Part shown: positions 1,229-30,977 of the stretch, piece by piece
Layout of the letters: each line of letters opens with the position of its first letter
How positions within the stretch are numbered: position 1 is the stretch's first letter
From: an uncultured Chloroflexia bacterium
GTDB lineage: Bacteria > Chloroflexota > Chloroflexia > Chloroflexales > Roseiflexaceae
Direction of reading: 5' to 3'
Assembly (NCBI GenBank): GCA_963704535.1
Contig: OY969916.1
Location: 3,830,841-3,894,840, forward strand
Length of the DNA stretch: 64,000 nucleotides
Notes under the pieces: generated by a model
Seen by the model: only the letters and a program-made list of their open reading frames with translations
What the model was told of the DNA's origin: nothing
The model's database searches: none
Made by a program: the position numbers and the translations under genes

Positions 1229-2461
1229 ATGTCAGGGCTACTGTTAATCCCGGCCATCATCTTCGGCGTCTTGCTGCTCGTCGTCTTCATGTCCGGGTTC
1301 CTCCGCTATATCCCCAACAACAAGGTTGGCATTGTGGAGAAGCTTGTAAGCGGTCGCGGGTCGGTGAAATCCGGATTTATTGCCCTAAAAGGTGAGGCCG
1401 GTTTCCAGCCTGATGTTCTTCGTGGTGGCTGGCACGTGTTCATCCCTTTCCAATACCGCATTCACAGCGTCCCGCTTGTGACCATTCCCCAGGGCAAGAT
1501 CGGCTACATCTTCGCGCGTGACGGTCTACCGCTCCAGCCCGCACAGTCATTGGCTTCCAATGTTACGGCCAATAATTTTCAGGATGTGGGAACCTTTTTG
1601 CAAAACGGTGGGCAACAGGGACCACAACGCCAGATTTTGCGTGAAGGTACGTATGCCTTAAATCTGGCGGAATTCGTCGTGATTACCGAAGATAGCGTCT
1701 TTTATCTACCGTTGAGCCGCGAGGAAGAAGCTACGTTCAAGCGCATGGCCGAAGTCATCAAAGAGCGCGGCGGTTTTCAGCCGGTGATTATCAAGGGCGC
1801 CGATGACCTTGTCGGTATTGTCACTGTCCACGATGGCCCATCGCTCCCCCAGGGGGAGATCATCGCACCGACGGTCGGCAACGAATCCGCCGACCAGGAG
1901 ACCTATCACAACACCTTTCAAGACCCCGAGCGCTTCCTGAAGGCCGGCGGTATGCGTGGGCGACAGCTTCAGGTACTGGTCGAGGGTACATACTATATCA
2001 ATCGGCTGTTTGCCACCGTCGAGATGATACCGAAAACGGTGGTCGAGGTCGGTAATGTGGGCGTGGTCGTGTCGTACACAGGTGACGTCGGCGCGGACCT
2101 GTCGGGCGAGGAGTACAAGCACGGCGAGATGGTGAAGCAGGGCAGCCGCGGCGTGTGGAATACGCCCCTGCTGCCGGGCAAGTACGCGTTTAACACCTAT
2201 GCCGGCAAAGTGCTCATGGTGCCCACGACCAATATCATCCTCAAGTGGAATAAGAGCGAAAGCGGCGCGCACCGATTAGATGAGAACCTGTCGGAAATCT
2301 CGCTGATCACCAAGGACGCCTTCGAGCCATCACTGCCGTTGTCGGTCGTCGTGCATATCGACTACCGGCAAGCGCCGCTGGTCATCCAGCGCTTCGGCGA
2401 TGTCAAGCGGCTGGTCGAGCAGACCCTTGACCCGATGGTTTCGGCATATTTTAAGAACTAG
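1229..2461 (+). pseudogene. Flotillin/SPFH (band-7) family protein, N-terminal 410-aa fragment truncated at the element junction
   Basis: It has an N-terminal TM helix and an SPFH-like body. It is collinear with, and ~95 % identical to, residues 1-410 of the full-length 681-aa paralog at 30978..33023. It ends ...SAYFKN* exactly where the serine recombinase gene abuts. The continuation KNVGQ... is found at 34064. Confidence 0.7.
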
Positions 2462-4094
2462 AGGAATTAGATCGCAGCAAGGGAATACTCACTACGTCGT
2501 CACGTAGGATACATTGTAGCCGAAGCCATATCTCCCCGGATTTCCTTACAACCTCCACCCGAACATCAAGCCCATCCACCACCGTCCGCTTGGCGTCAAA
2601 CCGCTCCTCAATCGCTGCTAAGTGCTCCCCGAGCTGGTATGAGAAGGCAATCAGGCTGTTGATTGTGTCATCGGTTAAGGGCGTCTCTTTTTCTTGTTCT
2701 AATTTCCTAATTTCCTCAGTTGTAAGCTGAAGTTTGCGATTCTGTTCGGAAATCAGCTCCTCAACTATCCCTTCGGGCATGCCTTTCGCGTACAGTGTTC
2801 CAATCCTTTTCAGCTCTGCTTCAATCTCTCCCTTGTGTTCGTAGAGCGTTCGGAGGCGTTCCAAAACGCCGCTCCCGGCGTCCCGCTGTCCCTGCTGGAT
2901 TTCTTGCAGCTTGCGCTCAAGGATTGCAGGATTGGCTATCTCCTCTTTTACCCAAGACCAAACCCTATTATCAAGCTCTGTGACATGGACTGGCGGCATG
3001 TCACAGCTATGCGCCCGATTGTGGGCTGCGGTTCGCCCAGGACAGCGGTAGAAATGCCAAGCATATTCAGTAATCGTGCCGTCTTTCAGCTTATGCGCCT
3101 TGCCCGTACTGATTGAGCGCATCTTGTACCCACATTCACACGTCACCCGTCTGCCTACAAGATAGTCAAAGCGCGCTCCCCGGTTTGACAGGGGACGCCC
3201 TTGATCCATGCGGCGTTGGGCAGCGTTGAATAATTCCTCATCAACAATGCGAGGCACCGGGACACCGACCCACGTATCCCGATCCCGATTGGCAAGTGGC
3301 TGACCGTTGACTGCCTTATAGCGGAACTGGTAAAAAATACCGTTATATGCGCTATGCCGAATAATTTTGTGAATCGTTGCCCTGCTCCACTGAGCGTACC
3401 CGCGTATTTTCATGTGGACTCGGCCGGGGATGAGGTCTTGCGGCGTTGGAATACCACGTTCTGTTAACCGCTCGGCAATTCGTAGAGTTGAGAGCGGCCC
3501 TGATTCCCCATCGCCGACAACATACCAGGTAAAAACTTGGCGGATAATCTTTGCCTGTTCCTCATTGACCACAAGGCTTGCGTTTCTTCCCTGTCCGACT
3601 TTGTTATATCCGTATGGTGGGCGGCCAAGCCCTATCCACTTACCGGCAGCAACTTTATTCTTCCTGCCCTGATCAGTACGCTCGACAATATCATCTGCTT
3701 CTATCTCAGCCATGATGTACTGGAGGTCTTCAGGGAGGCGCTGGCGGGCTGTCTTCCCGCTGATTTGCCGGGTTGACGCATAGTGAATGTCCTTGCCTGC
3801 CCTTCTGATGCGCTCACGAAGCACCACTGAGTTCACATAGTTACGATGTAGCCGGTCAAACTTCCACGTCACGAGCACATCTGCCTCATCACGCTCAAGC
3901 ATCTGACAGGCTTCTTCTAACCCATCACGTTCCAGCTTGCGGCCGGTCATATCATCTTTAAACTCGGCAACAATGGCTAGCCCTGTCTCAGCATCATATT
4001 GCCGCATCTGTTCAAGCTGGTAGTCAAGGGAGTAGAGTTCAGCCTGGCGGGGAGTGGACACGCGGGCGAGGTTGATAGCACGCTTGGAGGACAT
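2451..4094 (-). CDS. Large serine recombinase (resolvase/invertase N-domain, recombinase domain, zinc ribbon/coiled-coil)
   Basis: The N-terminus is MSSKRAINLARVSTPRQ..., a catalytic-Ser resolvase motif. A recombinase domain follows (GRPPYGY...), then a Cys-containing segment (CECGYKM...C) and a coiled-coil C-terminus. Its last 3-4 codons and stop cross the presumed attL into host sequence. Confidence 0.85.
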   Translation of the reverse strand: MSSKRAINLARVSTPRQAELYSLDYQLEQMRQYDAETGLAIVAEFKDDMTGRKLERDGLEEACQMLERDEADVLVTWKFDRLHRNYVNSVVLRERIRRAGKDIHYASTRQISGKTARQRLPEDLQYIMAEIEADDIVERTDQGRKNKVAAGKWIGLGRPPYGYNKVGQGRNASLVVNEEQAKIIRQVFTWYVVGDGESGPLSTLRIAERLTERGIPTPQDLIPGRVHMKIRGYAQWSRATIHKIIRHSAYNGIFYQFRYKAVNGQPLANRDRDTWVGVPVPRIVDEELFNAAQRRMDQGRPLSNRGARFDYLVGRRVTCECGYKMRSISTGKAHKLKDGTITEYAWHFYRCPGRTAAHNRAHSCDMPPVHVTELDNRVWSWVKEEIANPAILERKLQEIQQGQRDAGSGVLERLRTLYEHKGEIEAELKRIGTLYAKGMPEGIVEELISEQNRKLQLTTEEIRKLEQEKETPLTDDTINSLIAFSYQLGEHLAAIEERFDAKRTVVDGLDVRVEVVRKSGEIWLRLQCILRDDVVSIPLLRSNSSSS

Positions 4095-5549: not shown

Positions 5550-5858
5550 TTGATCGCCCTCGATAGCTCGTATGTAATCCAATCGATACTTCATTCGGAG
5601 ATGACAATGAGCACTATAAAATTCAGACCATCGGATTTTATGCGTGCAAGGCGCCCCACATTATTTTCAGATACAACGGTAAAAGAAAGGTTTATACTCT
5701 CTGAAAGTATGTTGGAGTACCACCTTGACACCCTAACCAGTCGGAAGCAGGAAAACGACTTTGAGAACTATTGCCGGCGTTTGGCTGAAAAAGAGATATG
5801 CCCTAATTTGCTGCCTCAGTCTGGGCCGGTTGGCGGCGGGGACAGCAAAGTAGATAGT
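5550..5858 (+). pseudogene. Mrr_cat-like (PD-(D/E)xK) nuclease-fold protein, 5' portion; the gene is interrupted by an IS insertion and resumes at 8214..8507
   Basis: The frame continues exactly across the 3-bp TSD (AGT=Ser) from ...GGGDSKVDS to SENYPVADAIAQ.... The reconstructed ~200-aa product has an E...GGGDSKVD...SAKKK layout and a C-terminus (YDLIYFITNQF...IALHGIEV) that resemble the Mrr catalytic domain. The region is AT-rich. Confidence 0.4.
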
Positions 5859-6133
5859 AGACATTATCAAGGTTGGCGGTATACTGTCCGGGATGTTCTT
5901 TCACGGAGTGAAATAATGCCAAAGTTCGACACCATTTTGCAGAATGAGCGGCGCTTACGCGCCTTTACCGGCCTGGATACAGCCACCTTCACAGCCTTCT
6001 TACCCGATTTTACCAAGGCAATGCAACACTATCTCAAGGGCACGACCCTTGATGGCTACGTCCGAGAAGGCGACCGCGCGATTACCTACGCCAACAGCCC
6101 GCTACCCACAGCCTCTGATCGGCTGCTATTCAT

Positions 6134-7461
6134 CTGTAGTTTTGCAAAGTTGAACCACACGCGCTCCTGTAGTAGGATAGCCCCATGCGGATCCGTGCCA
6201 GATGAATCACCACCAGGAGCGGGTATGCCAGCGATTGTTGAGTTCCCAAGCGTCGTGCAAGACCTCCTGGTCCAATACGCAGACCTGTTTGCCAACCAGC
6301 CCGAGCGCCAGCACTTCGCTGAGTATCTGACCGGCCTGTTCATTGCTGAACGCAAAACCGTCAGCGGTATCAACCGCGAGTTTGCAGTCACGACAGACCA
6401 GTCCTGCCTGAACCGCTGGATCACTGAGGTTGAGTGGGAGGAAAAGGCGCTCAACCAGCGGCGCCTCGAGCTGCTGCAACGCGACTCTGCCACCCACTAC
6501 ACCAAGAATGGCGTCATCGCGATTGATAACACCCTCATCGATCACGACGGCAAGCTGATTGAAGATGTCGGCTGGTTCTGGGATCATGCTGAGAAGCGGC
6601 ACCTGATTGCCCACGACTACTTGATCGCCAACTACGTCTGCGCTTCCGGCAAGCACTATCCGCTGGAGTTCCGCCGCTTTCGCAAGAAGGACACCTGTGC
6701 CGCCACAGGCAGTCTCTTCAAGAACCACACCGTCCTGTGTCAAGAACTGGTCGATTGGGTCGTGGAACAGAACATACCGGGCGATTTCACCTTCGATAGT
6801 TACTTCACCCATGCCGACATTCTCAACCACATCGACGGTTATGGCCGCAATTACGTCGGTGATCTGAAGTTCAATCGTACTATCAACGTCGATGGACGCG
6901 ACTGGAAAGCCAGTGAATGGGTGAAGGCCGAACTGGGACCGCTGTGTCGGCGCAAAACGACCGTCGACGGCAAAGAGCAATGGTACTTCACCAAAAGTAT
7001 TCGCATTCCGGGCGTCACGCACACGGTGCGGATTGTGGTGCTGTGGAAAGGGCAACGGGATGCCGAACCACGCAAGATCTTGATTACCAATCGCACCTAT
7101 TGGGAAGTGCATCGCATCCTCAAGACGTATCGCAAACGCTGGACAGGAACGGAGACCTTCCATCGGGACGGGAAGCAGCATCTCGGCATGGGCGATTGTC
7201 AGCTCAGGAAGGGCGAGAGCCAGACACGGCATATGTATCTCGTATTCCTGGCGTACAGCGCCTTGATGACCCAGTTGCGGCACGACCGTGCGCAGGAATG
7301 GGCTCAGGCACGCCTAATGACCATCGGCGAGTCCTGTCGCGCCATGTCTCGCGAGACCTTGGGCAAAACGATCGCCTGGGTGGTTGAGCAGGTTCAGCAA
7401 GGGCAGAGTCTGTCCGATATCAAGGCCCATTTGGCCCTACCCTAACTTTGCAAAACTACAG
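6134..7461 (+). mobile_element. IS701-family (IS4 superfamily) insertion sequence, copy 1, nested inside the IS5-family element
   Basis: It has perfect 18-bp IRs, CTGTAGTTTTGCAAAGTT and AACTTTGCAAAACTACAG. It is flanked by a duplicated TTCAT that is present only once in the intact IS5-family copy (…gctattcatcctcacc…). Confidence 0.75.
6225..7445 (+). CDS. IS701-family DDE transposase (copy 1)
   Basis: It is identical in length to the transposase at 18184..19404, with 2 aa differences. An N-terminal motif QHFAEYLTGLFIAERKTVSG is present. The 631-aa ORF at 5550..7445 in the track is an in-frame chimera of the nuclease fragment, IS5 orfA and this transposase. Confidence 0.8.
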   Translation: MPAIVEFPSVVQDLLVQYADLFANQPERQHFAEYLTGLFIAERKTVSGINREFAVTTDQSCLNRWITEVEWEEKALNQRRLELLQRDSATHYTKNGVIAIDNTLIDHDGKLIEDVGWFWDHAEKRHLIAHDYLIANYVCASGKHYPLEFRRFRKKDTCAATGSLFKNHTVLCQELVDWVVEQNIPGDFTFDSYFTHADILNHIDGYGRNYVGDLKFNRTINVDGRDWKASEWVKAELGPLCRRKTTVDGKEQWYFTKSIRIPGVTHTVRIVVLWKGQRDAEPRKILITNRTYWEVHRILKTYRKRWTGTETFHRDGKQHLGMGDCQLRKGESQTRHMYLVFLAYSALMTQLRHDRAQEWAQARLMTIGESCRAMSRETLGKTIAWVVEQVQQGQSLSDIKAHLALP

Positions 7462-8213
7462 TTCATCCTCACCTATCTCAAGCAGAATGCTATCCAAGAG
7501 GTGCATGGGCAGCTCTTCGGCATGAGTCAGTCAAATGTCAGTAAATGGGTGCGGCTATTACTGGATATTCTTGAACGATGCCTTGGCCGCCCAACGGCTG
7601 TTGCCAGCACGCAGCGCAGCAGAACTGGCAGCGCGGTTACGAGACGAAACGCTCGAACTCGATCCAGAGGCTCCCCTTTTTTCTGTCACGACGCTACAGA
7701 GCGACCGATAGCACGACCAAAAGATGCGGAGGAGCAGGAAATCTACTACAGCGGCAAGCAGAAAGACCATACCATCAAGAATGTGCTCATTGTGGATGCG
7801 GCTGGGCGTATTTGGTTTTTGAGCGCCACATATGCCGGCAAAGTTCACGATAAACGGATTGCGGATGAAGCCCAATATCGGCTGCCGGAAGGCAGCGTGT
7901 TGGGGCAAGATAGTGGATTTCAGGGTTTCACACTGCCGGATGTGTTCATCCTCCAACCAAAAAAGAAGCCACGCAACGGCACGCTGACCGAGGACGAGAA
8001 AGCAGAGAATCGCTGGATCTCGCACATCAGAGTGCTGGTCGAGCATAGTATCGGTGGTGTGAAAGTCTATCGGATAGTTCACGATGTAATTCGTCACTGG
8101 TGTCCTTCCATCCGCGATCAGGTAATGCAGATTTGCTGTGGCCTCTACAATCTGCGGCTACGTCATCAGATGGCGGATACAAGCCTATCTGAATCTTGAT
8201 AATGTCTAGTGAG

Positions 8214-8507
8214 AATTATCCGGTTGCGGATGCAATAGCTCAGAGGTGGTATGAGGGGATTCCGCACGAAGCTGGAACGGAAAAATGGGCCTTTGCCTTT
8301 AGTGCAAAGAAAAAATGGCATGACAAGGTGGTGTCTGATGTAGACAAGATCGCCAAACTTCCACGCAAATATGACCTCATTTACTTCATCACGAATCAAT
8401 TTGTTTCTGATAAAAAACGAGCAGAGACTGAACAAAAGTTGATAGCTTTGCACGGAATTGAGGTGCGAAATTCTAGACAGAACCTGGTTAGTGAGACGCA
8501 CATGTGA
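8214..8507 (+). pseudogene. 3' portion of the IS-interrupted Mrr_cat-like nuclease gene
   Basis: The frame is continuous with 5550..5858 once the IS and its TSD are removed. See the feature at 5550. Confidence 0.4.
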
Positions 8508-11196
8508 TCATGGACACGAAGAATTAGCAATAGACACGCTGCATATCCATGTACCTGTTAGACCTGAAGTTCGTTTGGGGCCACTTGACGCATCGAGAGA
8601 AGCAGAGCTTAATGCACTAGAAGAAAAGTTCAAACAACCGGAGAAATGTTATAGAACGACGTATCAATTAATAGAGGATTATATTCAGGCTGCCAAGCTT
8701 TCACGAGGTATGGCCCATCCGAGACATCGTGTTTTCGGGTATTTGTCATACGCGAAACAGCTAGCCTACCAGACAAATAATGTTCAACAGATAATTCGTG
8801 TTATCTATAATGAGGCTTGGACGGCGTTCTGGTGGTTCGATGATGTTGATGAACTTAATAGAAGATATGATGAAATCGAACCCTTATGTCTGAAATCGAT
8901 TTATATTTCGGATTTGGAACACTTACATAACTTATGGCAATTAATGTATACCTTTGTAAGAAGGGATTTATTGAAAATCGATAAGAAAAAGCCGAGTAAA
9001 CGAACACATAATTTATTGCAATTAATCGAAGCATTCGCAACAAATGAGTCTAAGCCAAATACGGCACTTCATGCGCGTACGATAATGCATCTCACAAAAT
9101 TACTGCTTGGAGCTACTGAAAAATCAGATATCGTCCGAGAAGAATTAACTAGGCTCAAGATGTGTTTTAAGGAAATAGACGGTTTGGCTTCATATCCTGT
9201 TTTGTCATTTATTGAAGTTTTGGCTGAAATAGGTAATTCATTTTCTGATTATGTCGAGTATGACGATATAATGGAAGATTTATGTATAATTGCGGCAAAG
9301 AGAGAAGGAGAAGTACAAGAGGGAACACTACTGTTTCAGCGTGGTATACAAAAGCTTGAGAAACGCAAGTACCTGGAAGCTTTGAAATTACTCGGCCGTG
9401 CCCGAGAAAAGTTTGTGAAAGATGAAGCACAGGCAGAAATGGTGCAAACTGCTATTGCTTGTGGAGTGGTATATGAAGCAATGGGATTATTGTGGGCAGC
9501 ACGAATGGAGGTACTAGTAGCGGCATCTATTGCTCTTAGCAAGCTTGATTCGCAAGGTATAATACCACATATTGCATTAACCTGTACTCAGCGGATGATA
9601 TGGCTAGAGCTTCAGTTTGGGCGAATCCCTTGCGTTCTCGAATGGTATCGGCTTAGTGTGGCTCTGGCAAGGGCACTAGAATTAGATGATGAAGAGGATG
9701 TGGCATTTGAGAACCAACGTGCATTGCAAGATGCAGTGTTGGGGATTTTGATGTTAAGGCTGAAACCGGAGGAATTGATACATTTTGAGATACTCCCCGC
9801 TATTTTAGATGAATTACAACTATTCTCGGCAAGTGCTGCCCTCCTCTATGGTCTTGGACATGAAGAAGTGCTGCGTGAAGAGGGGTTGTTCACATCCCAA
9901 GATAGTAAGAGTGATGTTCTAAATTTCTTTGTTCGCCTGAGAGATCAACCTGCAAGTTCTGACCTGCCTGATAAACCAATCTTTCACGCACAACGACAAA
10001 CATTGTATGTAACTATTTTGATGGGCTGTAGGGTAGAGATTTCTGTTCAGAACTCTTTCGACTGTCTCAGTCTTGCTGAGAATATACTCGCTGTACTAGA
10101 GGCTTTCCTTGCCACTATCGATTATTCCGACTTCGCCTTTTATCGACCGAGTTTGCGAATTACCATAGAACAATCTGAATATGTGTCGTTCCCTGGATAC
10201 GCGTGGATTAATGAGGCAATAACCGGAAAAGCAGTCGAAATACGAATTAATAACTCAACCAGCTATTATCGAGATCTAATGGTGCGCTCTCAAGCTGAGT
10301 TTAGAGATTGGCTGGTGGAGATACTATCTCTTGTTCTCGGCGCTGCTACAATTCCCCGAGACAGTAATGTAGAAAATCCGCTCGAAAAGCTTGCGAAAGA
10401 GGGTGCCTTTTCACGAGCATTATCGTTTTCTCCCACATCAATTTGGCTTAATAATGTTTTGGGTGACAAACCAAAATATGCCATCTCTGCTTGGACTAAA
10501 CCGGAAGACCAGAAAGTATATCACTTGAAGCGCAGGGAGGCTTGGGATATCTCTGTTCCGGTTTTGTCAAATCAGATCCAAGATGATACGAAAGATTTAT
10601 CAAGCAAATTTACATACGACCGAAACGTAATCAAACATAAGGATCATCTTGTTTTATCCCATGTCAACATCGATTTGTGGAATAAAGCTAAATGGGGAGG
10701 GACCGGGTTCATATATGTACCCGATGGTAGCGACGAGCCTATGCTTGGTGTAATTTTTGGTGATTACGAGATTGGAAAACAGATATTTCGAGAATGGCAG
10801 CAGAGCATTGGCGAAGTGGATGAATTTGAGGAGCTACGTGTTTCGATTATTCAAGATATAGAACCAAATTCGCCAAAATATAAAGTTGTGATTGGTACAG
10901 AGGTTGACAACGTATTGAAGCGGCGTGGGCAAGAACACACAGCGACAACCAAAATGTTTGTTATGATGTCTCGAATTAACACTATGGAGCCAGATCCCAA
11001 TTCCAAGTACTTGGAGAATTTCAAGAGGCTATATGGTATTCACGGTTGCTATCGTATTATACCATGTGGCAATTTTAATGGGAGAGCTTTTGATTTTGCC
11101 CCCGAGCTTTCAATTCTCAAAAAAAAGATCCACTTTCGGGACTTGAAAGACATAACCCAAAATGATCTCGACATAGTAGCGTTGCGCGATGTTTAG
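8458..11196 (+). CDS. Large hypothetical protein (912 aa; alternative start at 8710 gives 828 aa), α-helical/TPR-like, with no recognisable catalytic motif
   Basis: It is a long uninterrupted ORF in a markedly AT-rich segment. It overlaps or abuts the nuclease gene, so the two form a likely two-gene operon. No Walker A motif was found. Confidence 0.5.
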   Translation: MRCEILDRTWLVRRTCDHGHEELAIDTLHIHVPVRPEVRLGPLDASREAELNALEEKFKQPEKCYRTTYQLIEDYIQAAKLSRGMAHPRHRVFGYLSYAKQLAYQTNNVQQIIRVIYNEAWTAFWWFDDVDELNRRYDEIEPLCLKSIYISDLEHLHNLWQLMYTFVRRDLLKIDKKKPSKRTHNLLQLIEAFATNESKPNTALHARTIMHLTKLLLGATEKSDIVREELTRLKMCFKEIDGLASYPVLSFIEVLAEIGNSFSDYVEYDDIMEDLCIIAAKREGEVQEGTLLFQRGIQKLEKRKYLEALKLLGRAREKFVKDEAQAEMVQTAIACGVVYEAMGLLWAARMEVLVAASIALSKLDSQGIIPHIALTCTQRMIWLELQFGRIPCVLEWYRLSVALARALELDDEEDVAFENQRALQDAVLGILMLRLKPEELIHFEILPAILDELQLFSASAALLYGLGHEEVLREEGLFTSQDSKSDVLNFFVRLRDQPASSDLPDKPIFHAQRQTLYVTILMGCRVEISVQNSFDCLSLAENILAVLEAFLATIDYSDFAFYRPSLRITIEQSEYVSFPGYAWINEAITGKAVEIRINNSTSYYRDLMVRSQAEFRDWLVEILSLVLGAATIPRDSNVENPLEKLAKEGAFSRALSFSPTSIWLNNVLGDKPKYAISAWTKPEDQKVYHLKRREAWDISVPVLSNQIQDDTKDLSSKFTYDRNVIKHKDHLVLSHVNIDLWNKAKWGGTGFIYVPDGSDEPMLGVIFGDYEIGKQIFREWQQSIGEVDEFEELRVSIIQDIEPNSPKYKVVIGTEVDNVLKRRGQEHTATTKMFVMMSRINTMEPDPNSKYLENFKRLYGIHGCYRIIPCGNFNGRAFDFAPELSILKKKIHFRDLKDITQNDLDIVALRDV

Positions 11197-11672
11197 TCTA
11201 ACCTTTTCATAAAGACATGAAAGGATCGTCGTGATCCGACATAGTAGACTTTATCAAGATGTAAGTAATTGATCCTCTAGCATTTTGATGACAAAGACGA
11301 CTTGCCATTAGCGGAATTTACCACCGTACAGGCTAGTTTTCCATTACAATATCGTTGCGACGAGCCTTCTATTCCCATAATCCCTATTTCCGGTCCAGTT
11401 CCACGATGTTACGTTCTATGGCCCAATTTCGCACGAATGCTCCATAGCGCAAGCGCCACCACCACGAATGAAAATACTGTGCTATCCTCACTTCAGACCA
11501 TGTGCGTGTCAGACGTCGACAACGATCTGGTGCCGGGGAGTCCGGGCACGAATGTGATCTAGCGCCTGTAGGTATCACCGTCTGTTGCCCCATCTTTTTG
11601 GGAGCACGCAAGGGAAACTCTTACTTGTTGACCCAGGCGCTCCGTGCATGGTCACGTTGCAAGGAGGTCAGG

Positions 11673-12917
11673 ATGCACATCTTGTATCAGCGCTGTTGTG
11701 GTTTGGACGTGCATAAACAGCGGGTCAGCGCCTGCTTGTTACTGCCGGGCAATGATCGTCGTCAGCAGAAGGTTGCACGCTCCTTTGGGACCACCACCAG
11801 CCAACTCCAAGCCCTCAAGGAGTGGTTAGTCGCAGCAGACTGCACTCACGTCGCCATGGAAAGCACCGGGCCATACTGGAAACCAGTCTACAACATCTTG
11901 GAAGACAGCTTTACTCTGATCCTGGCGAATGCCCAACACATTAAGGCCCTACCAGGACGCAAGACCGATGTTGGTGATGCCGAATGGATTGCAGATCTGC
12001 TCCAGCATGGTCTGATACGCAGTAGTTTCATTCCATCGCGACCCCTGCGTGAACTGCGCGAACTGACCCGCTATCGCAAAACCTTGATCCAAGAACGCTC
12101 CGCAGAAATCAACCGGGTGCAGAAAGTGCTGGAGGGAGCCAATATCAAACTCGGCTCAGTCGCAACCAATGTTTTGGGGGTGTCTGGACGGGCGATGCTG
12201 GATGCGCTGGTCAACGGCACCACAGATAGTAACGTTTTAGCCGACTTGGCTCAGGGCAGGTTGCGCAAGAAGATACCCGAACTCCAAGCCGCCTTGAACG
12301 GGCTGATCGCAGATCATCAACGCTTCGTGCTGGGCCAACAGTTAGCGCATATTGATAGTTTGAACGCGATGATCGTCACGTGCAGCGCTGAGATAGAGCA
12401 GCGCTTTGCCGACCATCAGGAGCTGATCAGACGGCTCTGCACGATACCGGGGGTCGGGCAACGAACAGCCGAAACGCTGCTGGCAGAGATTGGTACGGAT
12501 ATGAGTCGCTTTCCGAGTGCCAAACATCTGGCCTCCTGGGCTGGTTTGTGTCCAGGCAATCACGAGAGCGCGGGGAAGCGTAAATCAGGCAAAACGCGCA
12601 AAGGCAGCCGCTGGTTGCGGGAAGCGTTAGTAGAGGCGGCACGAGCTGCGGCACGAACCCGCACCACCTACTTGGCAGCCCAATATCATCGTTTAGCTGC
12701 ACGACGAGGCGGTAACAAGGCCGCCGTGGCGGTCGCACATACGATTCTGGTCATCAGCTATCATCTCATCCGTGATGGAGGCGAGTACGAAGATTTGGGG
12801 GCGACGTACTACGACGAAATGGATCGCGAGCGAGTTCAGCGGCGTTTAGTGCGCCGTCTTGAAGCGATGGGCTGTCGGGTCACGCTCGAACCAGACCAGC
12901 CGGCAGCAACAGCATAA
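11673..12917 (+). CDS. IS110-family transposase (DEDD type)
   Basis: It begins [23 protein letters not shown]..., which is the IS110 N-terminal DEDD domain. The C-terminus has the ...[16 protein letters not shown]...[15 protein letters not shown] helix-hairpin-helix region. An AGGAGG RBS lies at 11662. IS ends are not defined because IS110 lacks IRs. Confidence 0.85.
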
Positions 12918-13744: not shown

Positions 13745-14752
13745 CATTGTGGTAGTCCAACATACTAGTGGTAAGCAGAATCACTTCACGCCATCGCTTA
13801 TCTGCTGCATGGGATAGGCTCTTTCTGCCAATCCGCTTTCCGGTATCAAGCCGCTGCGGCGGCATGCGAGAGGAGGCGAAGATAGCGTTCGATAAACGCC
13901 AGCTTGACCAGTCCCAAGTAGTTGAGTGCCAGCTTCTCGTAGCGCGTCGCGATCGCACGACACTCTTTCAGCCAGCCCACGCACTGCTCGATCGTAGAGC
14001 GACGGCGATACAGCACGCAATCATAGGTCACTGGGCGACCAGGTTTTGGTTTTCCACTGCGCCGTTTGGGTGGAATGATTGGTTTGATACCACGCGAGCG
14101 CAACCAGTGGCGGATGCGCTGAGCGTCGTAGGCGCGGTCGGCCGCCAAGCGACGTGGTCGTCGTCGGATGCGTCCGCTAGCGCGTGGGATGGCCACCTGC
14201 TCCATCACGGTTTCGACCTGTGTTGATTCGTGAGTTTGCCCAGGCGTGAGACAGACATCGAGCGGCACGCCGTTGCCGTCACTCAGCAGATGGATTTTGG
14301 TGCTAAAGCCACCCACCGATCGTCCGAGTGCGTGGTTGCCGGGTTCGGAGTTGCCGTCAGGTCCGCTTTTTTCGGCTCCAGCAGCGGCGCGGTGGGCACG
14401 CACGATCGTGCTATCGAGCGACCATTGCTCCCAGTCGATAATGCCTTGTGCATCCAGTTTGGTTTGGAGCGTCTTGAGGATGCGATCCCAGATGCCGTTG
14501 CGGCGCCAGGTGGTGTAGCGGTCATAGATTGTTTTCCAGTTGCCATAGCGTTCAGGAATATCGGGCCAGGGCGCGCCGGTGTGCAAACGCCAGAGGATGC
14601 CGTTGATAATCGGACGGTGCTCTTTGTAAGGATGACCAGTCTTGCCATCATTGGTCGGTAAATCTGGCTCAATCAGCGCATACTGTTCGTCAGTCAGTTC
14701 GTAGCGTGCCATCATTGCTCCGGTCTCATTATGGTAAACCTATAGTCTACCA
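13745..14752 (-). mobile_element. IS5-family insertion sequence (approximate ends)
   Basis: It is ~1 kb and carries one DDE transposase. It has imperfect terminal IRs, TTGTGGTAG... at 13746 and ...CTATAGTCTACCACAAC at ~14752. Confidence 0.55.
13846..14715 (-). CDS. IS5-family DDE transposase
   Basis: The sequence MMARYELTDEQYALIEPDLP...GAPWPDIPERYGNWKTIYDRY...RAYD...TIEQCVGWLKECRAIATRYEKL carries the typical IS5/IS4 DDE_Tnp_1 hallmarks. Confidence 0.8.
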   Translation of the reverse strand: MMARYELTDEQYALIEPDLPTNDGKTGHPYKEHRPIINGILWRLHTGAPWPDIPERYGNWKTIYDRYTTWRRNGIWDRILKTLQTKLDAQGIIDWEQWSLDSTIVRAHRAAAGAEKSGPDGNSEPGNHALGRSVGGFSTKIHLLSDGNGVPLDVCLTPGQTHESTQVETVMEQVAIPRASGRIRRRPRRLAADRAYDAQRIRHWLRSRGIKPIIPPKRRSGKPKPGRPVTYDCVLYRRRSTIEQCVGWLKECRAIATRYEKLALNYLGLVKLAFIERYLRLLSHAAAAA

Positions 14753-16155: not shown

Positions 16156-16619
16156 CGGCGTGCTCCTCGTAACAGTGCGGATGGGTCTAATGATAGCACT
16201 CCGCGCAAGAGGGACCAGCCACGCAGGGGAGCGAAGCCCCTAACCAGAGCTGACTGTTACCCATATCTTCCAGACGTGAGCAGAATGGGCTGGATCAACA
16301 GGAAATGGCCCTGAAGTGGGGTCGTGCAAGCAGCAGTTACCTGACAAACAGCCCACTTACGCGCCAAATCCATCACCTAGAAAACATATGGGTAATAGTC
16401 AGCTAACCAGAGAGGGGAAGATAGAACGACCGATTCTGTGTCGTGGGTTCCCATAATACCTGTTCCTGGTACCACTCCGTGTGAGATTGCCCATAGACAC
16501 GCGGCAGACTGGTTCCATATAATAGGAAAATACCGGTGTTATTGGAACCAGTTTTTGCCGACATTTCTGTTTGTATCCCCTGCCCGGCGGTGCTAGGATA
16601 CGGAGAGACCAAACGATCT

Positions 16620-17501: not shown

Positions 17502-18096
17502 CGGCATACCGGACATCAATGACAACCTGTTCCTCGATCTCCGCAGCAGCACAAGCCGCGAAGGCCCGGCGGCAAGCGGTGTTACGAAGGGTCCAAGCAC
17601 AGCGAGCGATAGCACATAAACGGACAGTTGCAGACTGGATGAGAGACGGGCTGGTGATAACGGGCAGCGAGTTGAGAGATAAGTATGTAGTTGGCAGACG
17701 TGCTGCTGGACAGCGCATATGAGATACCTCCCTCCCAATCACTTCACTCCATCCACGCACCACACTTGATCCCTGGTGTATACTAGAGATGCAGGAGTCA
17801 CACTCCCACATACTCCTCGTTCGCTTTCACTGAACTTCGTTACAGCCACACGGTCTACCCCTGCGGCAGAGTGGGAGAGTTAGGCAGTGCAATGTGGCAC
17901 ATGCACCGCCTGAAGAGGAGTCGTGCACGGGCGAGGCCACCAAGAGTTGTCAAGGAAACGCTTGACACTCAGATCGCGTTTTACGGCTTTCTGATGGGTT
18001 TTACACTGCAAACTAATACTAGAAGGAATCTGTGTCAATGGCTAGAGCAAGCAGTAACAGCAAACAATTAGCCCCGAACGATGCCCATCTAACTGT

Positions 18097-19418
18097 AGTT
18101 TTGCAAAGTTGAACCACACGCGCTCCTGTAGTAGGATAGCCCCATGCGGATCCGTGCCAGATGAATCACCACCAGGAGCGGGTATGCCAGCGATTGTTGA
18201 GTTCCCAAGCGTCGTGCAAGACCTCCTGGTCCAATACGCAGACCTGTTTGCCAACCAGCCCGAGCGCCAGCACTTCGCTGAGTATCTGACCGGCCTGTTC
18301 ATTGCTGAACGCAAAACCGTCAGCGGTATCAACCGCGAGTTTGCAGTCACGACAGACCAGTCCTGCCTGAACCGCTGGATCACTGAGGTTGAGTGGGAGG
18401 AAAAGGCGCTCAACCAGCGGCGCCTCGAGCTGCTGCAACGCGACTCTGCCACCCACTACACCAAGAATGGCGTCATCGCGATTGATAACACCCTCATCGA
18501 TCACGACGGCAAGCTGATTGAAGATGTCGGCTGGTTCTGGGATCATGCTGAGAAGCGGCACCTGATTGCCCACGACTACTTGATCGCCAACTACGTCTGC
18601 GCTTCCGGCAAGCACTATCCGCTGGAGTTCCGCCGCTTTCGCAAGAAGGACACCTGTGCCGCCACAGGCAGTCTCTTCAAGAACCACACCGTCCTGTGTC
18701 AAGAACTGGTCGATTGGGTCGTGGAACAGAACATACCGGGCGATTTCACCTTCGATAGTTACTTCACCCATGCCGACATTCTCAACCACATCGACGGTTA
18801 TGGCCGCAATTACGTCGGTGATCTGAAGTTCAATCGTACTATCAACGTCGATGGACGCGACTGGAAAGCCAGTGAATGGGTGAAGGCCGAACTGGGACCG
18901 CTGTGTCGGCGCAAAACGACCGTCGACGGCAAAGAGCAATGGTACTTCACCAAAAGTATTCGCATTCCGGGCGTCACGCACACGGTGCGGATTGTGGTGC
19001 TGTGGAAAGGGCAACGGGATGCCGAACCACGCAAGATCTTGATTACCAATCGCACCTATTGGGAAGTGCATCGCATCCTCAAGACGTATCGCAAACGCTG
19101 GACAGGAACGGAGACCTTCCATCGGGACGGGAAGCAGCATCTCGGCATGGGCGATTGTCAGCTCAGGAAGGGCGAGAGCCAGACACGGCATATGTATCTC
19201 GTATTCCTGGCGTACAGCGCCTTGATGACCCAGTTGCGGCACGACCGTGCGCAGGAATGGGCTCAGGCACGCCTAATGACCATCGGCAAGTCCTGTTGCG
19301 CCATGTCTCGCGAGACCTTGGGCAAAACGATCGCCTGGGTGGTTGAGCAGGTTCAGCAAGGGCAGAGTCTGTCCGATATCAAGGCCCATTTGGCCCTACC
19401 CTAACTTTGCAAAACTAC
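18097..19418 (+). mobile_element. IS701-family insertion sequence, copy 2
   Basis: It has the same 18-bp perfect IRs as copy 1 and is 1322 bp long. No obvious TSD is present (flanks ...atctaa / tagaca...). Confidence 0.8.
18184..19404 (+). CDS. IS701-family DDE transposase (copy 2)
   Basis: It is near-identical to 6225..7445. Confidence 0.8.
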   Translation: MPAIVEFPSVVQDLLVQYADLFANQPERQHFAEYLTGLFIAERKTVSGINREFAVTTDQSCLNRWITEVEWEEKALNQRRLELLQRDSATHYTKNGVIAIDNTLIDHDGKLIEDVGWFWDHAEKRHLIAHDYLIANYVCASGKHYPLEFRRFRKKDTCAATGSLFKNHTVLCQELVDWVVEQNIPGDFTFDSYFTHADILNHIDGYGRNYVGDLKFNRTINVDGRDWKASEWVKAELGPLCRRKTTVDGKEQWYFTKSIRIPGVTHTVRIVVLWKGQRDAEPRKILITNRTYWEVHRILKTYRKRWTGTETFHRDGKQHLGMGDCQLRKGESQTRHMYLVFLAYSALMTQLRHDRAQEWAQARLMTIGKSCCAMSRETLGKTIAWVVEQVQQGQSLSDIKAHLALP

Positions 19419-19477
19419 AGTAGACAGTAGGTGGTTGGGAACGATCGAATAATCTCTTACTATACAAGGAGGGACAC

Positions 19478-19891
19478 ATGCGTCACAAATCCATTTTCCT
19501 CGCCTTGGCTCTTGCCATGCTCATCGGCTCGGTTTTGATGCTTGGTACACCTACGCAGAGGGCATATGCCTCTGCACAGAAGACATATATCTCAAGCTGT
19601 CGTAATCTTGGGGTATATACCGATTGGTACAACAATAAACCATCAATCTACATCTGGAACGGAGCAGTACGCCCTGTCCCATCGAAAATGAGTATCAGCT
19701 TCTATGGCCCATTCGGATGGGAGCCTGTCCCATCTCCAAGCGATTGGGGTGTGCGTACTGATGCTCCCCAGGTCGAAAATAGGAATGGATGGTATATCTA
19801 CTTCATCGCAACAAGATGGATCTACTTGACAACACCCCATTCACTGTTTTGGAACGATGATTGGCGATGGAGAGTGACGTATTGTAGCTAA
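19478..19891 (+). CDS. Small secreted Trp/Tyr-rich protein (signal peptide)
   Basis: It starts MRHKSIFLALALAMLIGSVLMLGTPTQRAYASAQ, a signal peptide. It lies in an AT-rich segment between IS701-family copies, and an AGGAGG-like RBS (caaggaggg) is present. Confidence 0.4.
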   Translation: MRHKSIFLALALAMLIGSVLMLGTPTQRAYASAQKTYISSCRNLGVYTDWYNNKPSIYIWNGAVRPVPSKMSISFYGPFGWEPVPSPSDWGVRTDAPQVENRNGWYIYFIATRWIYLTTPHSLFWNDDWRWRVTYCS

Positions 19892-20135
19892 TATCGGCCT
19901 CAAATAGAATTATCGAAAGGGGGTGTGTGAAACACCTCCTTTTTGCACCCAGATCGGTGTTTATACTTCTTGTTAAGCGTCAATAACTTCCTGTATCGAG
20001 TTGTCAAATTATGTAACTTTAATTATAGCAAACCTACCAGAGTCGTAAAAGGGAGTATGGGGTAGCTCCCACAGAAACCATCCCTCACTTTACAACTCAG
20101 ATAGGAATGCTATATAATGACATTTATTCACAAAT

Positions 20136-28776: not shown

Positions 28777-29844
28777 CAAAGAAATCGCCTGACCTGCCCC
28801 TGGCGTGATAGCGTGTACAGAGTGAGAAAGTGCTATCATTGCGTCGTGCTTGCTCAAAACCCAAGTGCCAAGCCGTGCTTAGCAAGAGCACCGCTAAACC
28901 CCGTTCCAAGTGCCGTAGAAGAACAAGGCTGGGTGCATGGTCAGGCGATTGTATCGTGAACGATACCTGTCAGTTGTACACGGTTGCCAATGAGAGCGGG
29001 GCAATAATCCGGGAAGAGTTTTGTAAGAAGCTGAAAAACGAACACGTGCGTCGTCGTTCACCTATCCCTCGAAGCAGGCTGGCGTCTGAAGCTACCATTG
29101 CTGTTTCAACCAGTGGCCATAGGCGCGCGGTCTTGACGTGGCGCGCAATCTGTAGGGTATCCCGCACGGGAGGACGCGGAGCGGGACGGGCATACGGCAG
29201 CCAGTGCATGGAAGTAGCATCCCCCCCGTGCGGGTGCGTGGAAGTGTAGCGCGCCGTCAAGACCAAGACGAGCGCGCGCCGTGTGGCTGCGCAGCCGCAA
29301 TGTGGATTGTTCGAGGTCCGGGTATGGGGCACCGGCAGGCAGGGCAGCGGGTGCCAGTTTGCGTCACGTTCTAGAATAGCCGGAGCTGCTCGGCTGGCTG
29401 CTCCTTTGGCTTTTCCTTTTTGGCCTTGCGCGGCTTCTTCTCGGGCTCCCCTTTGCCTCCCTGTGAGCTGCCAGTGGGCTGCTGCATGATGTAGTCCAGT
29501 ATGCGGCTGATTTGTGACCATTGTTCGGTACTCATGGCTTTCCTCCTGGTGAGCCATTACACAGCGTAGTACAGTCCCCAGCCGAAAGCGGGCAGGGAGA
29601 GCGTTTTTGTTTCCGCCGCGCCGTAAACTTTGCAGGAGGCGAAGTGAGCGTACCGAAGGGGATAGGGAGCGGAAACCATGTCTTCTGACCAGCTCTTTCG
29701 GGGTGGAGCGGGTGAGGAGTGGTGGTTGGAAAGACGGTCAGAAGACGGTTGGAGCGACCTATACGCGAACGAGCCGACTGCTAGCATAGACATTATCAAG
29801 GTTGGCGGTATACTGTCCGGGATGTTCTTTCACGGAGTGAAATA

Positions 29845-30306
29845 ATGCCAAAGTTCGACACCATTTTGCAGAATGAGCGGCGCTTACGCGCCTTTACCGG
29901 CCTGGATACAGCCACCTTCACAGCCTTCTTACCCGATTTTACCAAGGCAATGCAACACTATCTCAAGGGCACGACCCTTGATGGCTACGTCCGAGAAGGC
30001 GACCGCGCGATTACCTACGCCAACAGCCCGCTACCCACAGCCTCTGATCGGCTGCTATTCATCCTCACCTATCTCAAGCAGAATGCTATCCAAGAGGTGC
30101 ATGGGCAGCTCTTCGGCATGAGTCAGTCAAATGTCAGTAAATGGGTGCGGCTATTACTGGATATCTTGAACGATGCCTTGGCCGCCCAACGGCTGTTGCC
30201 AGCACGCAGCGCAGCAGAACTGGCAGCGCGGTTACGAGACGAAACGCTCGAACTCGATCCAGAGGCTCCCCTTTTTTCTGTCACGACGCTACAGAGCGAC
30301 CGATAG
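29845..30306 (+). CDS. IS5-family transposase OrfA (HTH)
   Basis: It is 153 aa. The downstream orfB lies in the -1 frame. Confidence 0.7.
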   Translation: MPKFDTILQNERRLRAFTGLDTATFTAFLPDFTKAMQHYLKGTTLDGYVREGDRAITYANSPLPTASDRLLFILTYLKQNAIQEVHGQLFGMSQSNVSKWVRLLLDILNDALAAQRLLPARSAAELAARLRDETLELDPEAPLFSVTTLQSDR

Positions 30307-30794
30307 CACGACCAAAAGATGCGGAGGAGCAGGAAATCTACTACAGCGGCAAGCAGAAAGACCATACCATCAAGAATGTGCTCATTGTGGATGCGGCTGG
30401 GCGTATTTGGTTTTTGAGCGCCACATATGCCGGCAAAGTTCACGATAAACGGATTGCGGATGAAGCCCAATATCGGCTGCCGGAAGGCAGCGTGTTGGGG
30501 CAAGATAGTGGATTTCAGGGTTTCACACTGCCGGATGTGTTCATCCTCCAACCAAAAAAGAAGCCACGCAACGGCACGCTGACCGAGGACGAGAAAGCAG
30601 AGAATCGCTGGATCTCGCACATCAGAGTGCTGGTCGAGCATAGTATCGGTGGTGTGAAAGTCTATCGGATAGTTCACGATGTAATTCGTCACTGGTGTCC
30701 TTCCATCCGCGATCAGGTAATGCAGATTTGCTGTGGCCTCTACAATCTGCGGCTACGTCATCAGATGGCGGATACAAGCCTATCTGAATCTTGA
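30141..30794 (+). CDS. IS5-family transposase OrfB (DDE_Tnp_4/Harbinger-like DDE domain), probably expressed as OrfAB by a programmed -1 frameshift at CCCTTTTTTC (~30259-30268)
   Basis: The genuine DDE region begins at ~CHDATERPIARPKDAEEQEIYYSGKQKDHTIKN. The upstream part of this frame is Arg-rich junk. The slippery T-run sits at the point where the two frames exchange sense. Confidence 0.65.
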   Translation: MGAAITGYLERCLGRPTAVASTQRSRTGSAVTRRNARTRSRGSPFFCHDATERPIARPKDAEEQEIYYSGKQKDHTIKNVLIVDAAGRIWFLSATYAGKVHDKRIADEAQYRLPEGSVLGQDSGFQGFTLPDVFILQPKKKPRNGTLTEDEKAENRWISHIRVLVEHSIGGVKVYRIVHDVIRHWCPSIRDQVMQICCGLYNLRLRHQMADTSLSES

Positions 30795-30977
30795 TAATGT
30801 CTCATGAACAGGCGGCGAAACAAAACCCCCGCCGCGATGAACGCAACGAGGGCGATGCTTTTTACAGCGTGTTTGCGCTGGAAATCGGCGCCTGAGAGCA
30901 AAACAAATGCTGCTACAGCCACAAGACTATAGCAGCATTCATTCAGGTGTTGGAAAGGTGTTGCCGCCCCTACTCTG

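What the first reader, a model, noticed from the sequence alone, without database searches (positions are those of the whole stretch)
5550..11196. AT-rich two-gene module (Mrr-like nuclease plus 912-aa helical protein) inactivated by a nested IS insertion: candidate uncharacterised defence system
Removing the 2352-bp IS-in-IS insert restores a ~200-aa ORF with a PD-(D/E)xK/Mrr_cat-like layout. It overlaps, or sits just upstream of, a 912-aa ORF with no recognisable enzymatic motif and TPR-like helical repeats. Both are markedly AT-rich relative to the ~62 % GC background. They lie inside a mobile element beside NACHT and recombinase genes, a typical defence-island context. I do not recognise this nuclease plus large-partner architecture as a named system.
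Basis: inference. Interest (0 to 1): 0.65.

Follow-up and report, generated by a model that had tools for sequence, protein, structure and literature searches.

The report
IS-disrupted nuclease–TPR defence-like pseudogene
The supposed two-gene module is the wreck of a single ~1,080-residue gene, broken by a nested transposon insertion and a frameshift; it belongs to a widespread, unnamed bacterial protein family that joins a restriction-enzyme-like nuclease to a large repeat domain and probably acts in phage defence.

Summary
The nested IS insertion is real. An IS5-family element (5859..8207, 2349 bp, TSD AGT) carries a second IS (6134..7461, TSD TTCAT). Precise excision restores the reading frame.

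The "small nuclease" and the "912-aa partner" are one gene. Deleting one A from the run at 8468-8470 gives a continuous 1080-aa protein. More than 1,600 homologues are single ~1,100-aa proteins covering 99% of it. Both breakpoints fall inside invariant motifs. No partner gene is conserved in 80 loci from many phyla.

The window copy is dead. It has the IS insertion and a +1 frameshift, lacks the conserved C-terminal tail, and deviates at 22 of 166 highly conserved positions.

No Pfam, NCBIfam or PADLOC model and no PDB sequence matches the family. Predicted structure shows:
- a TPR solenoid
- a zincin-like domain without HExxH
- an α/β domain

There is no NTPase. Neighbours in other genomes include Hachiman, Gabija, Avs2, Mokosh and RM genes, integrases and transposons.

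Best reading: a stand-alone sensor–nuclease defence protein, with Avs-like logic but no ATPase. The defence role is inferred, not shown.

The parts
5607..5858 (+). 5' fragment of the gene. It encodes the start of the N-terminal nuclease-like domain up to ...GGGDSKVDS. The likely start is ATG 5607 (ATG 5601 is the alternative). The last 3 bases, AGT 5856-5858, are the left copy of the target-site duplication.
   Evidence: tblastn of 35 homologues gives an HSP at 5622-5867 matching their residues ~10-91. GGAG at 5597-5600 is read from the sequence.
5859..8207 (+). Composite insertion of 2349 bp. It is an IS5-family element (ends AGACATTATCAAG... / ...CTTGATAATGTCT) that is itself interrupted by a second IS.
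   Evidence: Inverted repeats. An uninterrupted twin lies at 29788..30802, flanked by its own 3-bp duplication, CAT. Pfam hits on 7462-8196: DDE_Tnp_4 at 3.4e-29 and HTH_Tnp_4.
6134..7461 (+). Inner IS of 1328 bp, with perfect 18-bp inverted repeats and a 5-bp target duplication, TTCAT (6129-6133 and 7462-7466). The transposase ORF is about 6207-7445.
   Evidence: The second copy at 18093..19420 is 1326/1328 identical. Pfam hits: DDE_5 at 6.4e-8 and DDE_Tnp_1 at 7.1e-8.
8208..8210 (+). Right copy of the 3-bp target-site duplication (AGT) made by the outer IS.
   Evidence: Comparison of the flanks of the two IS copies.
8211..8469 (+). Second gene fragment, in frame with the 5' fragment after excision. 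It encodes the rest of the nuclease-like domain (ENYPVAD...WAFAFSAKK...LIYFITNQF...GIEVR).
   Evidence: tblastn HSP at 8202-8468 matching homologue residues ~86-174. Reconstruction.
8468..8470 (+). AAA run carrying a +1 frameshift. Removing one A joins ...GIEVR to ILDRTWL..., which is the invariant family motif VRILDRxW.
   Evidence: The tblastn HSPs break exactly at 8468/8470.
8581..9963 (+). All-helical TPR-like solenoid, about residues 210-670 of the repaired protein.
   Evidence: The AF2 model has pLDDT mostly 85-95 here. Foldseek hits the LGN/Pins, KLC1 and SPINDLY TPR domains at E 1e-4 to 5e-3. There is no conserved Walker A motif.
9991..10473 (+). α+β domain, about residues 680-840, with a thermolysin/M1-aminopeptidase-like (zincin) fold. 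Its helix carries AExxLxxxE instead of HExxH, so it is a probable pseudo-peptidase.
10639..11196 (+). C-terminal α/β domain, about residues 896-1080, plus the stop codon TAG at 11194-11196. The family's conserved ~25-residue tail (DDPIIPxGVxxPPV...) is missing.
   Evidence: AF2 model. Only generic three-layer α/β matches. A tail HMM finds nothing elsewhere in the window. Homologue residues beyond about -26 are unmatched.

Best explanation
Window 5607..11196 holds one gene, not two. It is a decayed copy of a stand-alone ~1,100-aa protein family. The family's domain order is: an N-terminal Mrr-like PD-(D/E)xK nuclease fold, a TPR solenoid, a zincin-like domain without the metal-binding motif, and a C-terminal α/β domain.

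Shown:
- The window copy was interrupted by an IS5-family element that was itself hit by a second IS.
- It also carries a +1 frameshift at 8468-8470 and lacks the conserved C-terminal tail, so it cannot make the full protein.
- Intact homologues are single ORFs with no conserved neighbouring gene. They are spread patchily over many bacterial phyla and plasmids.

Inferred:
- The intact protein is a single-polypeptide immune sensor-effector. The more variable TPR and C-terminal domains bind a phage-derived protein or ligand.
- Binding relieves autoinhibition, or drives oligomerisation, of the highly conserved N-terminal nuclease.
- The nuclease then cuts DNA and stops the infection, probably at the cost of the cell.
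- This is the logic of Avs2-4, but without the STAND ATPase switch. Upx follows a similar logic with the opposite domain order.
- The active site would be D81/D85 in GGGDSKVD plus S118-x-K120. The missing acid would come from elsewhere, for example the invariant E88. This follows the S-x-K variant that I recall for Cfr10I-type enzymes.
For: One gene:
- The repaired 1081-aa sequence finds 1687 homologues. The best 120 are 1078-1217 aa and cover 99-100% of it.
- The alignment puts the IS junction inside the invariant GGGDSKVD-sE.YP motif and the frameshift inside the invariant VRILDRxW motif.
- Three colinear tblastn HSPs map to 5622-5867, 8202-8468 and 8470-11187.
- 309 species genomes encode a relative.
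- The top 150 of 3133 cluster representatives match end to end.
- Across 80 loci the only conserved ORF is the gene itself; the best true neighbour cluster occurs in 6 loci or fewer.

Decay:
- The copy deviates at 22 of 166 columns that are at least 95% conserved. The homologue median is 2 and the maximum 9.
- The conserved tail is absent.

Folds:
- AF2 models: pLDDT 82.9, pTM 0.72; the domain-fusion model has pLDDT 74.7.
- Foldseek's top hit is Avs4 at E 6e-3. The middle domain hits TPR proteins.

Effector and sensor pattern:
- Mean pairwise identity is 66% for the N-terminal domain, 52% for the TPR, 38% for the zincin-like domain and 44% for the C-terminal domain.

Defence context:
- The 144 immediate neighbours hit MkoA/MkoC, ZacC, HamB, type I and III RM subunits, PD-T7-5, AbiO, Nhi and PDC families, plus integrases and transposases.
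- The second neighbours hit Avs2, GajA, HamA, ZacB, HmaC, AbiEii and type I, II and IIG RM.
- One locus lies beside TIR, DAC and a 2025-aa NACHT gene, next to a Tn7-like tnsABCD module.
- 14 plasmids carry the gene.

Precedent:
- A STAND-less sensor-nuclease acting as a defence protein has been shown for Upx (PMC13601566).
Against: - No experiment links any family member to defence.
- The neighbour enrichment is not tested against a control gene set. Many loci are metabolic or unremarkable.
- No sequence model recognises the nuclease domain. Pfam Mrr_cat hits 1 of 78 N-domains at E 0.06. hhalign against an E. coli Mrr profile is not significant (Prob 0.18%, E 0.34).
- The canonical (D/E/Q)xK acid is a Ser.
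- The most conserved segment (residues ~69-110, holding GGGDSKVD) is the lowest-confidence part of both models (pLDDT below 50). The active-site geometry is therefore unverified.
- The C-terminal domains have no confident structural relatives. The best Foldseek hit apart from Avs4 is at E about 0.05.
- The family is rare in viral contigs (5 loci in IMG/VR), which says little either way.
Confidence: 0.6

Rival explanations
1. One reading: a two-gene defence module in which a ~200-aa Mrr-like nuclease works with a separate 912-aa helical partner.
For: In the window, the repaired small ORF stops at 8505-8507 and overlaps a 912-aa ORF that starts at 8458. The public annotation calls an 828-aa protein from the downstream part (P0001).
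Against: All homologues examined are single fused ORFs. The overlap is produced by one extra A inside an invariant motif.
Confidence: 0.02
2. A Type IV (modification-dependent) or otherwise constitutive restriction endonuclease. The Mrr-like domain cuts foreign DNA directly, and the rest of the protein only targets or regulates it, with no sensing of phage proteins.
For: The best structural matches include Type IV and IIS enzymes: AspBHI, MspJI, FokI, and LlaBIII's Mrr-like domain. RM genes lie nearby in some loci.
Against: No DNA-reader or DNA-binding domain is detectable, whether Mrr_N winged helix, SRA or another. About 880 residues are TPR, zincin-like and α/β folds, which are typical of protein or ligand binding. 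The single best match is the effector domain of a protein-sensing Avs.
Confidence: 0.15
3. Not immunity. The protein is an accessory or addiction function of mobile elements (for example a toxin-like nuclease or a DNA-processing factor), or the nuclease-like domain is catalytically dead and the protein is a scaffold.
For: The gene is often found on plasmids and beside integrases, IS elements and Tn7-like modules. Ser replaces the canonical acid in the (D/E)xK triad. No sequence model recognises the domain.
Against: No recombinase, transposase or antitoxin-like partner is conserved next to it. The putative active-site residues (D81, K83, D85, E88, S118, K120) are invariant across phyla, and this is the most conserved region of the protein. 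A dead domain would not be expected to show that.
Confidence: 0.2
4. The frameshift at 8468-8470 is an assembly error, so the gene is inactivated by the IS insertion only.
For: It is a single-base length change in a short homopolymer. No reads are available to check it.
Against: A 3-base run is not a typical error site in a finished 11.26-Mb contig. The copy shows other decay: 22 of 166 conserved sites changed and the tail lost.
Confidence: 0.1

Closest known systems
Avs2-4 (antiviral STAND NTPases with N-terminal Mrr-like nuclease effectors)
   Different: There is no STAND/NTPase module. The region between the nuclease and the C-terminal domains is purely helical, and no Walker A motif is conserved. 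No PADLOC Avs model hits. The zincin-like and α/β C-terminal domains have no counterpart that I know of in Avs.
Upx (Gao 2020; Evans et al. 2026, PMC13601566)
   Different: The domain order is reversed: the Upx nuclease is C-terminal. No PADLOC model of any system, Upx included if the library holds one, hits the protein. The Upx sensor is reported to bind by β-augmentation, whereas this one is a TPR solenoid.
Mrr / MspJI / AspBHI Type IV restriction endonucleases (Pfam Mrr_cat, PF04471)
   Same: Same fold. By eye the motifs line up with E. coli Mrr: GTGDGGIDG ~ GPTGGGDSKVD; VYVQAKRW ~ AFAFSAKKxW; GVFITTSGFT ~ LIYFITNQFV; MVLVDGERL ~ VRILDRxWI (sequences).
   Different: The match is below every sequence threshold. 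Ser stands in place of Q/E in the QxK/ExK triad. About 20 residues are inserted between the D and the xK strands. No DNA-reader domain is present.
M1/gluzincin metallopeptidase catalytic domain
   Different: There is no HExxH...E zinc site. Foldseek support is weak (E 0.15). At most this is a pseudo-enzyme used for binding.

Membership tests
PD-(D/E)xK / Mrr-like nuclease superfamily | Restriction-endonuclease-like α/β core fold | tested here: met
PD-(D/E)xK / Mrr-like nuclease superfamily | Catalytic D ... (D/E/Q)xK residues | tested here: inconclusive
   D81, D85 and K120 are invariant, but the triad reads S118-A-K120. The loop that carries GGGDSKVD is modelled at pLDDT below 50. An S-x-K variant with a relocated acid is something I recall for Cfr10I; I did not test it here.
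Pfam Mrr_cat (PF04471) | HMM match above the gathering score | tested here: not met
   No Pfam hit at E<=1 for the whole protein. One of 78 N-domains hits at E 0.06. hhalign against an E. coli Mrr profile gives Prob 0.18%, E 0.34.
Avs (antiviral STAND) | Central STAND NTPase with Walker A/B motifs | tested here: not met
   Residues 210-670 are all helical. A Walker A pattern occurs in 3 of 120 members, at non-homologous positions. No PADLOC hit.
Avs (antiviral STAND) | N-terminal effector plus C-terminal TPR-like sensor in one protein | tested here: met
Upx | N-terminal sensor followed by a C-terminal PD-(D/E)xK nuclease; sequence homology to Upx | tested here: not met
Type IV restriction enzymes (Mrr/MspJI type) | A modified-DNA reader domain (Mrr_N winged helix or SRA-like) fused to the nuclease | tested here: not met
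   No such Pfam domain is found. The remainder of the protein is TPR, zincin-like and α/β folds.
Gluzincin metallopeptidases | HExxH plus a downstream Glu as zinc ligands | tested here: not met
   HExxH occurs in 1 of 120 members. The equivalent helix carries AExxLxxxE.
Known anti-phage systems (PADLOC-DB v2.0.0, 2023) | Match to any system's protein model | tested here: not met
   No families at E<=1. Newer catalogues, such as current DefenseFinder, could not be searched.
Anti-phage defence genes in general | Protection against phage when expressed | not testable with these tools
   Only guilt by association is available: defence genes and mobile-element genes among the neighbours. There was no control set.
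IS5 family (outer insertion) | DDE_Tnp_4 transposase, terminal inverted repeats, short target duplication, multiple copies | tested here: met
   DDE_Tnp_4 at 3.4e-29. 13-17-bp inverted repeats, 3-bp duplications (AGT and CAT), and a second copy at 29788..30802.

The most novel reading that the evidence does not exclude
The intact family is a so far unnamed, widespread single-protein immune system: an "ATPase-less Avs". Evidence for its spread is at least 3,100 clusters at 50% identity and at least 309 species across more than 10 phyla. In this reading a TPR solenoid and a pseudo-zincin / α/β module sense a phage component and directly switch on an atypical S-x-K Mrr-like nuclease. That would show that pattern recognition coupled to nuclease suicide does not need an NTPase oligomerisation switch.
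Probability: 0.35. Interest if true: 0.65.

Novelty: new variant of a known kind. Interest (0 to 1): 0.48.

Why it matters
For this genome it matters little. The locus is a dead gene in an IS-ridden integrative island.

For the field, the locus points to a large, rigidly conserved ~1,100-aa protein family with three properties:
- No Pfam, NCBIfam, PADLOC or PDB-sequence coverage.
- An invariant, atypical nuclease motif (GGGDSKVD ... SAK).
- Frequent placement next to known defence systems and mobile-element genes.

If intact members defend against phage, they would be a second STAND-less sensor-nuclease after Upx, built from different parts. That would give a compact test case for how a repeat-domain sensor can gate a nuclease without an ATPase. 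The pseudo-zincin and C-terminal domains would be new candidate recognition modules.

Tried and rejected
- **Family libraries.** Pfam, NCBIfam and PADLOC scans of the repaired protein gave nothing at E<=1.
- **Per-domain Pfam scans.** Scans of 78 N-domains and 72 C-domains at E<=10 gave only noise.
- **PDB sequences.** A profile search of PDB sequences gave 0 hits at E<=10.
- **Full-length Foldseek.** The search returned only TPR proteins. I therefore modelled a fusion of residues 1-209 and 671-1080 to expose the terminal domains.
- Aligning the fusion against full-length homologues worked.
- **hhalign against E. coli Mrr.** The N-domain profile against an E. coli Mrr catalytic-domain profile was not significant. 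That Mrr profile was built from hits 70-99% identical to the query, so it is narrow and the test is weak.
- **Conserved partner gene.** All-against-all BLAST of ORFs from 80 loci found none.
- **Lost C-terminal tail.** A tail HMM against the six-frame translation of the window found nothing.
- **Source contig.** Looking up the contig through P0001 failed, so the organism is unidentified beyond an 11.26-Mb contig.
- **Literature.** Searches for a named nuclease-TPR system found only Avs and Upx as analogues.
- **Motif checks.** HEPN (RxxxxH), Walker A and HExxH were checked and rejected as conserved features.
- **Programmed frameshift.** Rejected, because homologues are continuous ORFs.
Full report
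**1. What is in the sequence**

ORF listing and repeat search show two nested pairs of inverted repeats in 5858..8208. The window holds a second, uninterrupted copy of the outer element at 29788..30802. It also holds a second copy of the inner element at 18093..19420, identical at 1326 of 1328 positions.

Comparing the flanks fixes the ends:
- The outer element runs 5859..8207, with ends AGACATTATCAAG... and ...CTTGATAATGTCT. It made a 3-bp duplication, AGT, at 5856-5858 and 8208-8210. Its twin made CAT.
- The inner element runs 6134..7461 and made a 5-bp duplication, TTCAT.

Pfam assigns DDE_Tnp_4/HTH_Tnp_4 to the outer transposase and DDE_5/DDE_Tnp_1 to the inner one.

Removing 2352 bp (element plus one duplication) restores the frame and gives ...GGGDSKVDSENYPVAD.... 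Its junction (5858+8214) was one codon off and would delete an invariant Glu.

**2. One gene, not two**

After excision the small ORF stops at 8505-8507 and overlaps the 912-aa ORF. Reading the DNA, the two frames join if one A is dropped from the AAA run at 8468-8470. This turns ...LIALHGIEVR | NSRQNL... into ...LIALHGIEVRILDRTWLV... and gives a continuous protein of 1081 aa, or 1080 aa with the exact excision.

Four results test this:
- The repaired protein retrieves 1687 homologues. The 120 best are 1078-1217 aa and cover 99-100% of the query at 37-41% identity. All are named "hypothetical" and none has a Pfam domain, apart from two with a C-terminal SEC-C motif.
- In the alignment, the IS junction lies inside the invariant GGGDSKVD-sE.YP motif and the frameshift lies inside the invariant VRILDRxW motif.
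- tblastn of 35 homologues against the window gives three colinear segments, 5622-5867, 8202-8468 and 8470-11187.
- A profile search of 1.84 billion cluster representatives finds 3133 members at E<=1e-3 and 1245 at E<=1e-30. The top 150 match end to end.

**3. The window copy is a decayed pseudogene**

Besides the IS insertion and the frameshift, the copy lacks the ~25-residue tail conserved in the family (DDPIIPxGVxxPPV). That tail is found nowhere else in the window.

The copy also deviates at 22 of 166 columns that are at least 95% conserved among 119 homologues. The homologue median is 2 and the maximum is 9. Changes include R266Y, Y232C, G968D and AW1064-65LK.

Because the nearest relative is only ~41% identical, lineage divergence and decay cannot be fully separated. 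The excess is nevertheless large.

**4. No partner gene, patchy and mobile distribution**

Relatives occur in 309 of the species genomes scanned. The 80 loci fetched come from Cyanobacteria, Acidobacteriota, Chloroflexota, Pseudomonadota, Verrucomicrobiota, Planctomycetota, Bacteroidota, Bacillota, Nitrospirota, a CPR bacterium and others.

All-against-all BLAST of every ORF in these loci finds only the gene itself in all 80. The remaining recurrent clusters are frame-overlap artefacts inside the gene, or neighbours shared by 6 loci or fewer. Fourteen plasmids carry the gene. It is rare in viral collections.

**5. Neighbourhoods**

First neighbours, 144 ORFs:
- PADLOC hits: MkoA and MkoC, ZacC (E 0), HamB (4.5e-301), type III MTase, type I S subunit, PD-T7-5, HmaB, AbiO, Nhi, RmrA and several PDC candidates.
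- Pfam hits: five tyrosine integrases, four rve transposases and two resolvases.

Second neighbours, 138 ORFs: Avs2, GajA, HamA, ZacB, HmaC, AbiEii and type I, II and IIG RM. Complete Hachiman, Hma and type I sets therefore appear to sit next to the gene in some genomes.

One locus has a TIR gene, a DAC gene and a 2025-aa NACHT gene beside the gene, with a Tn7-like tnsABCD module a few kb away. Other loci are metabolic or plasmid-maintenance regions.

This is the pattern expected of a defence or accessory gene. I had no control gene set, so the enrichment is qualitative.

**6. Domains**

No sequence library recognises any part of the protein.

AlphaFold2 with 36 sequences gives pLDDT 82.9 and pTM 0.72. 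The model shows:
- an α/β N-domain (about residues 1-200)
- an all-helical region (about 210-670)
- an α+β domain (about 680-840)
- a poorly modelled linker
- an α/β domain (about 896-1080)

The full model matches only TPR proteins. To expose the end domains I modelled residues 1-209 fused to 671-1080, aligned against 51 full-length homologues (pLDDT 74.7).

- Last domain: only generic three-layer α/β matches.

Foldseek agrees on Avs4 (E 6e-3) and finds nothing else convincing.

There is no conserved Walker A motif, so there is no NTPase.

**7. Active site**

By eye the family lines up with E. coli Mrr:

| E. coli Mrr | This family |
|---|---|
| GTGDGGIDG | GPTGGGDSKVD |
| VYVQAKRW | AFAFSAKKxW |
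| GVFITTSGFT | LIYFITNQFV |
| MVLVDGERL | VRILDRxWI |

About 20 residues are inserted in the family, and Ser replaces the Gln/Glu of QxK.

hhalign does not find this significant. The GGGDSKVD loop is the least confident part of both models. Catalytic competence is therefore an inference. It rests on the strict invariance of D81, K83, D85, E88, S118 and K120, and on the N-domain being the most conserved region (66% pairwise identity, against 38-52% elsewhere).

From general knowledge, not tested here: Cfr10I-type enzymes use an S-x-K triad with the acid supplied from another element.

**8. Mechanism proposed (inferred)**

The proposal is a conserved effector plus more variable TPR and C-terminal sensor domains, in a stand-alone, horizontally mobile gene found near other defence genes. 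This is the design of the Avs2-4 nuclease effectors, but without the STAND switch. Upx shows that a STAND-less sensor-nuclease can be a working defence protein that senses phage terminase and kills through its nuclease (PMC13601566).

I therefore propose trigger binding by the TPR and C-terminal module, then release or assembly of the nuclease, then DNA cleavage and abortive infection.

Rivals:
- a direct-acting Type IV-like restriction enzyme (no reader domain found)
- a mobile-element accessory or addiction function, or a scaffold with a dead nuclease domain

**9. Context in the window**

The gene lies in a ~33-kb island of lower GC (0.526, against 0.616 in the flanks). The gene itself is the lowest, at 0.415-0.457.

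The island contains:

| Coordinates | Strand | Feature |
|---|---|---|
| 2454-4094 | - | large serine recombinase |
| 11502-12914 | + | IS110 transposase |
| 13849-14715 | - | IS4/5 transposase |
| 14773-16155 | - | 461-aa NACHT ORF |
| 16536-17498 | + | tyrosine integrase |
| 22589-23989 | + | further DDE_5 IS |
| 27760-28773 | + | Replic_Relax protein |

**10. Verdict**

The architecture is wrong: it is one gene, not two, and the gene carries further lesions.

The locus itself is a dead remnant. Its value is as a pointer to a large family that none of the libraries searched covers. That family is best described as a new variant of the single-protein sensor-nuclease kind of defence system. 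I found no experimental evidence for a defence role in any member.

Noticed in passing
window 1229-2458 (+) and 30981-33023 (-): A 410-aa SPFH/Band_7 ORF abuts the serine recombinase gene at the left edge of the low-GC island. It is 97% identical over its whole length to the N-terminal 410 residues of a 681-aa SPFH ORF on the opposite strand at the right edge. An inverted partial duplicate of one gene therefore brackets the ~30-kb island. This is not the arrangement expected from simple integration into a gene, and it could reflect a recombinase-mediated inversion or rearrangement.
   Followed up: partly
window 18093-19420 and 29788-30802: These are second copies of both IS elements that disrupt the gene. 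The inner IS copy is 1326/1328 identical. The outer IS copy is identical apart from one extra T in the disrupted copy, near 7567, inside the transposase reading frame. Near-identity suggests that both IS families have been active recently in this genome.
   Followed up: yes
window 11245-11261: The sequence TAGACTTTATCAAGATG resembles the outer IS terminal repeat (3 mismatches). It lies 50 bp after the gene's premature end and just upstream of an IS110 transposase gene (11502-12914). It may be a relic of another IS5-like end linked to the loss of the gene's conserved C-terminal tail.
   Followed up: partly
window 14773-16155 (-): A NACHT-domain ORF of only 461 aa lies directly beside an IS4/5 transposase gene (13849-14715). 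NACHT defence proteins are usually much longer, so this may be another truncated immune gene in the same island.
   Followed up: no
window 19478-21853: This is a second very low-GC patch (0.455 at 20-22 kb). It holds four same-strand ORFs of 129-194 aa with no Pfam hit.
   Followed up: partly
window 46655-56800 (-): A 3381-aa ORF lies in the high-GC part of the window. I did not examine it.
   Followed up: no
homologues P0049, P0084, P0103, P0114 (C-termini): A few family members carry an extra C-terminal extension ending in a SEC-C-type Cys/His metal-binding motif (CxCxSGKKxxxCH; Pfam PF02810).
   Followed up: no
L081 4990-7641 (Agrobacterium pAt2) and L090 1-9873: Some homologues sit next to proteins of conflict systems that are little characterised. 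Examples are a SMEK-domain protein with a radical-SAM gene on Agrobacterium pAt2, and TIR_2, DAC (DACNG/DACNH) and a 2025-aa NACHT protein near a Tn7-like element.
   Followed up: no
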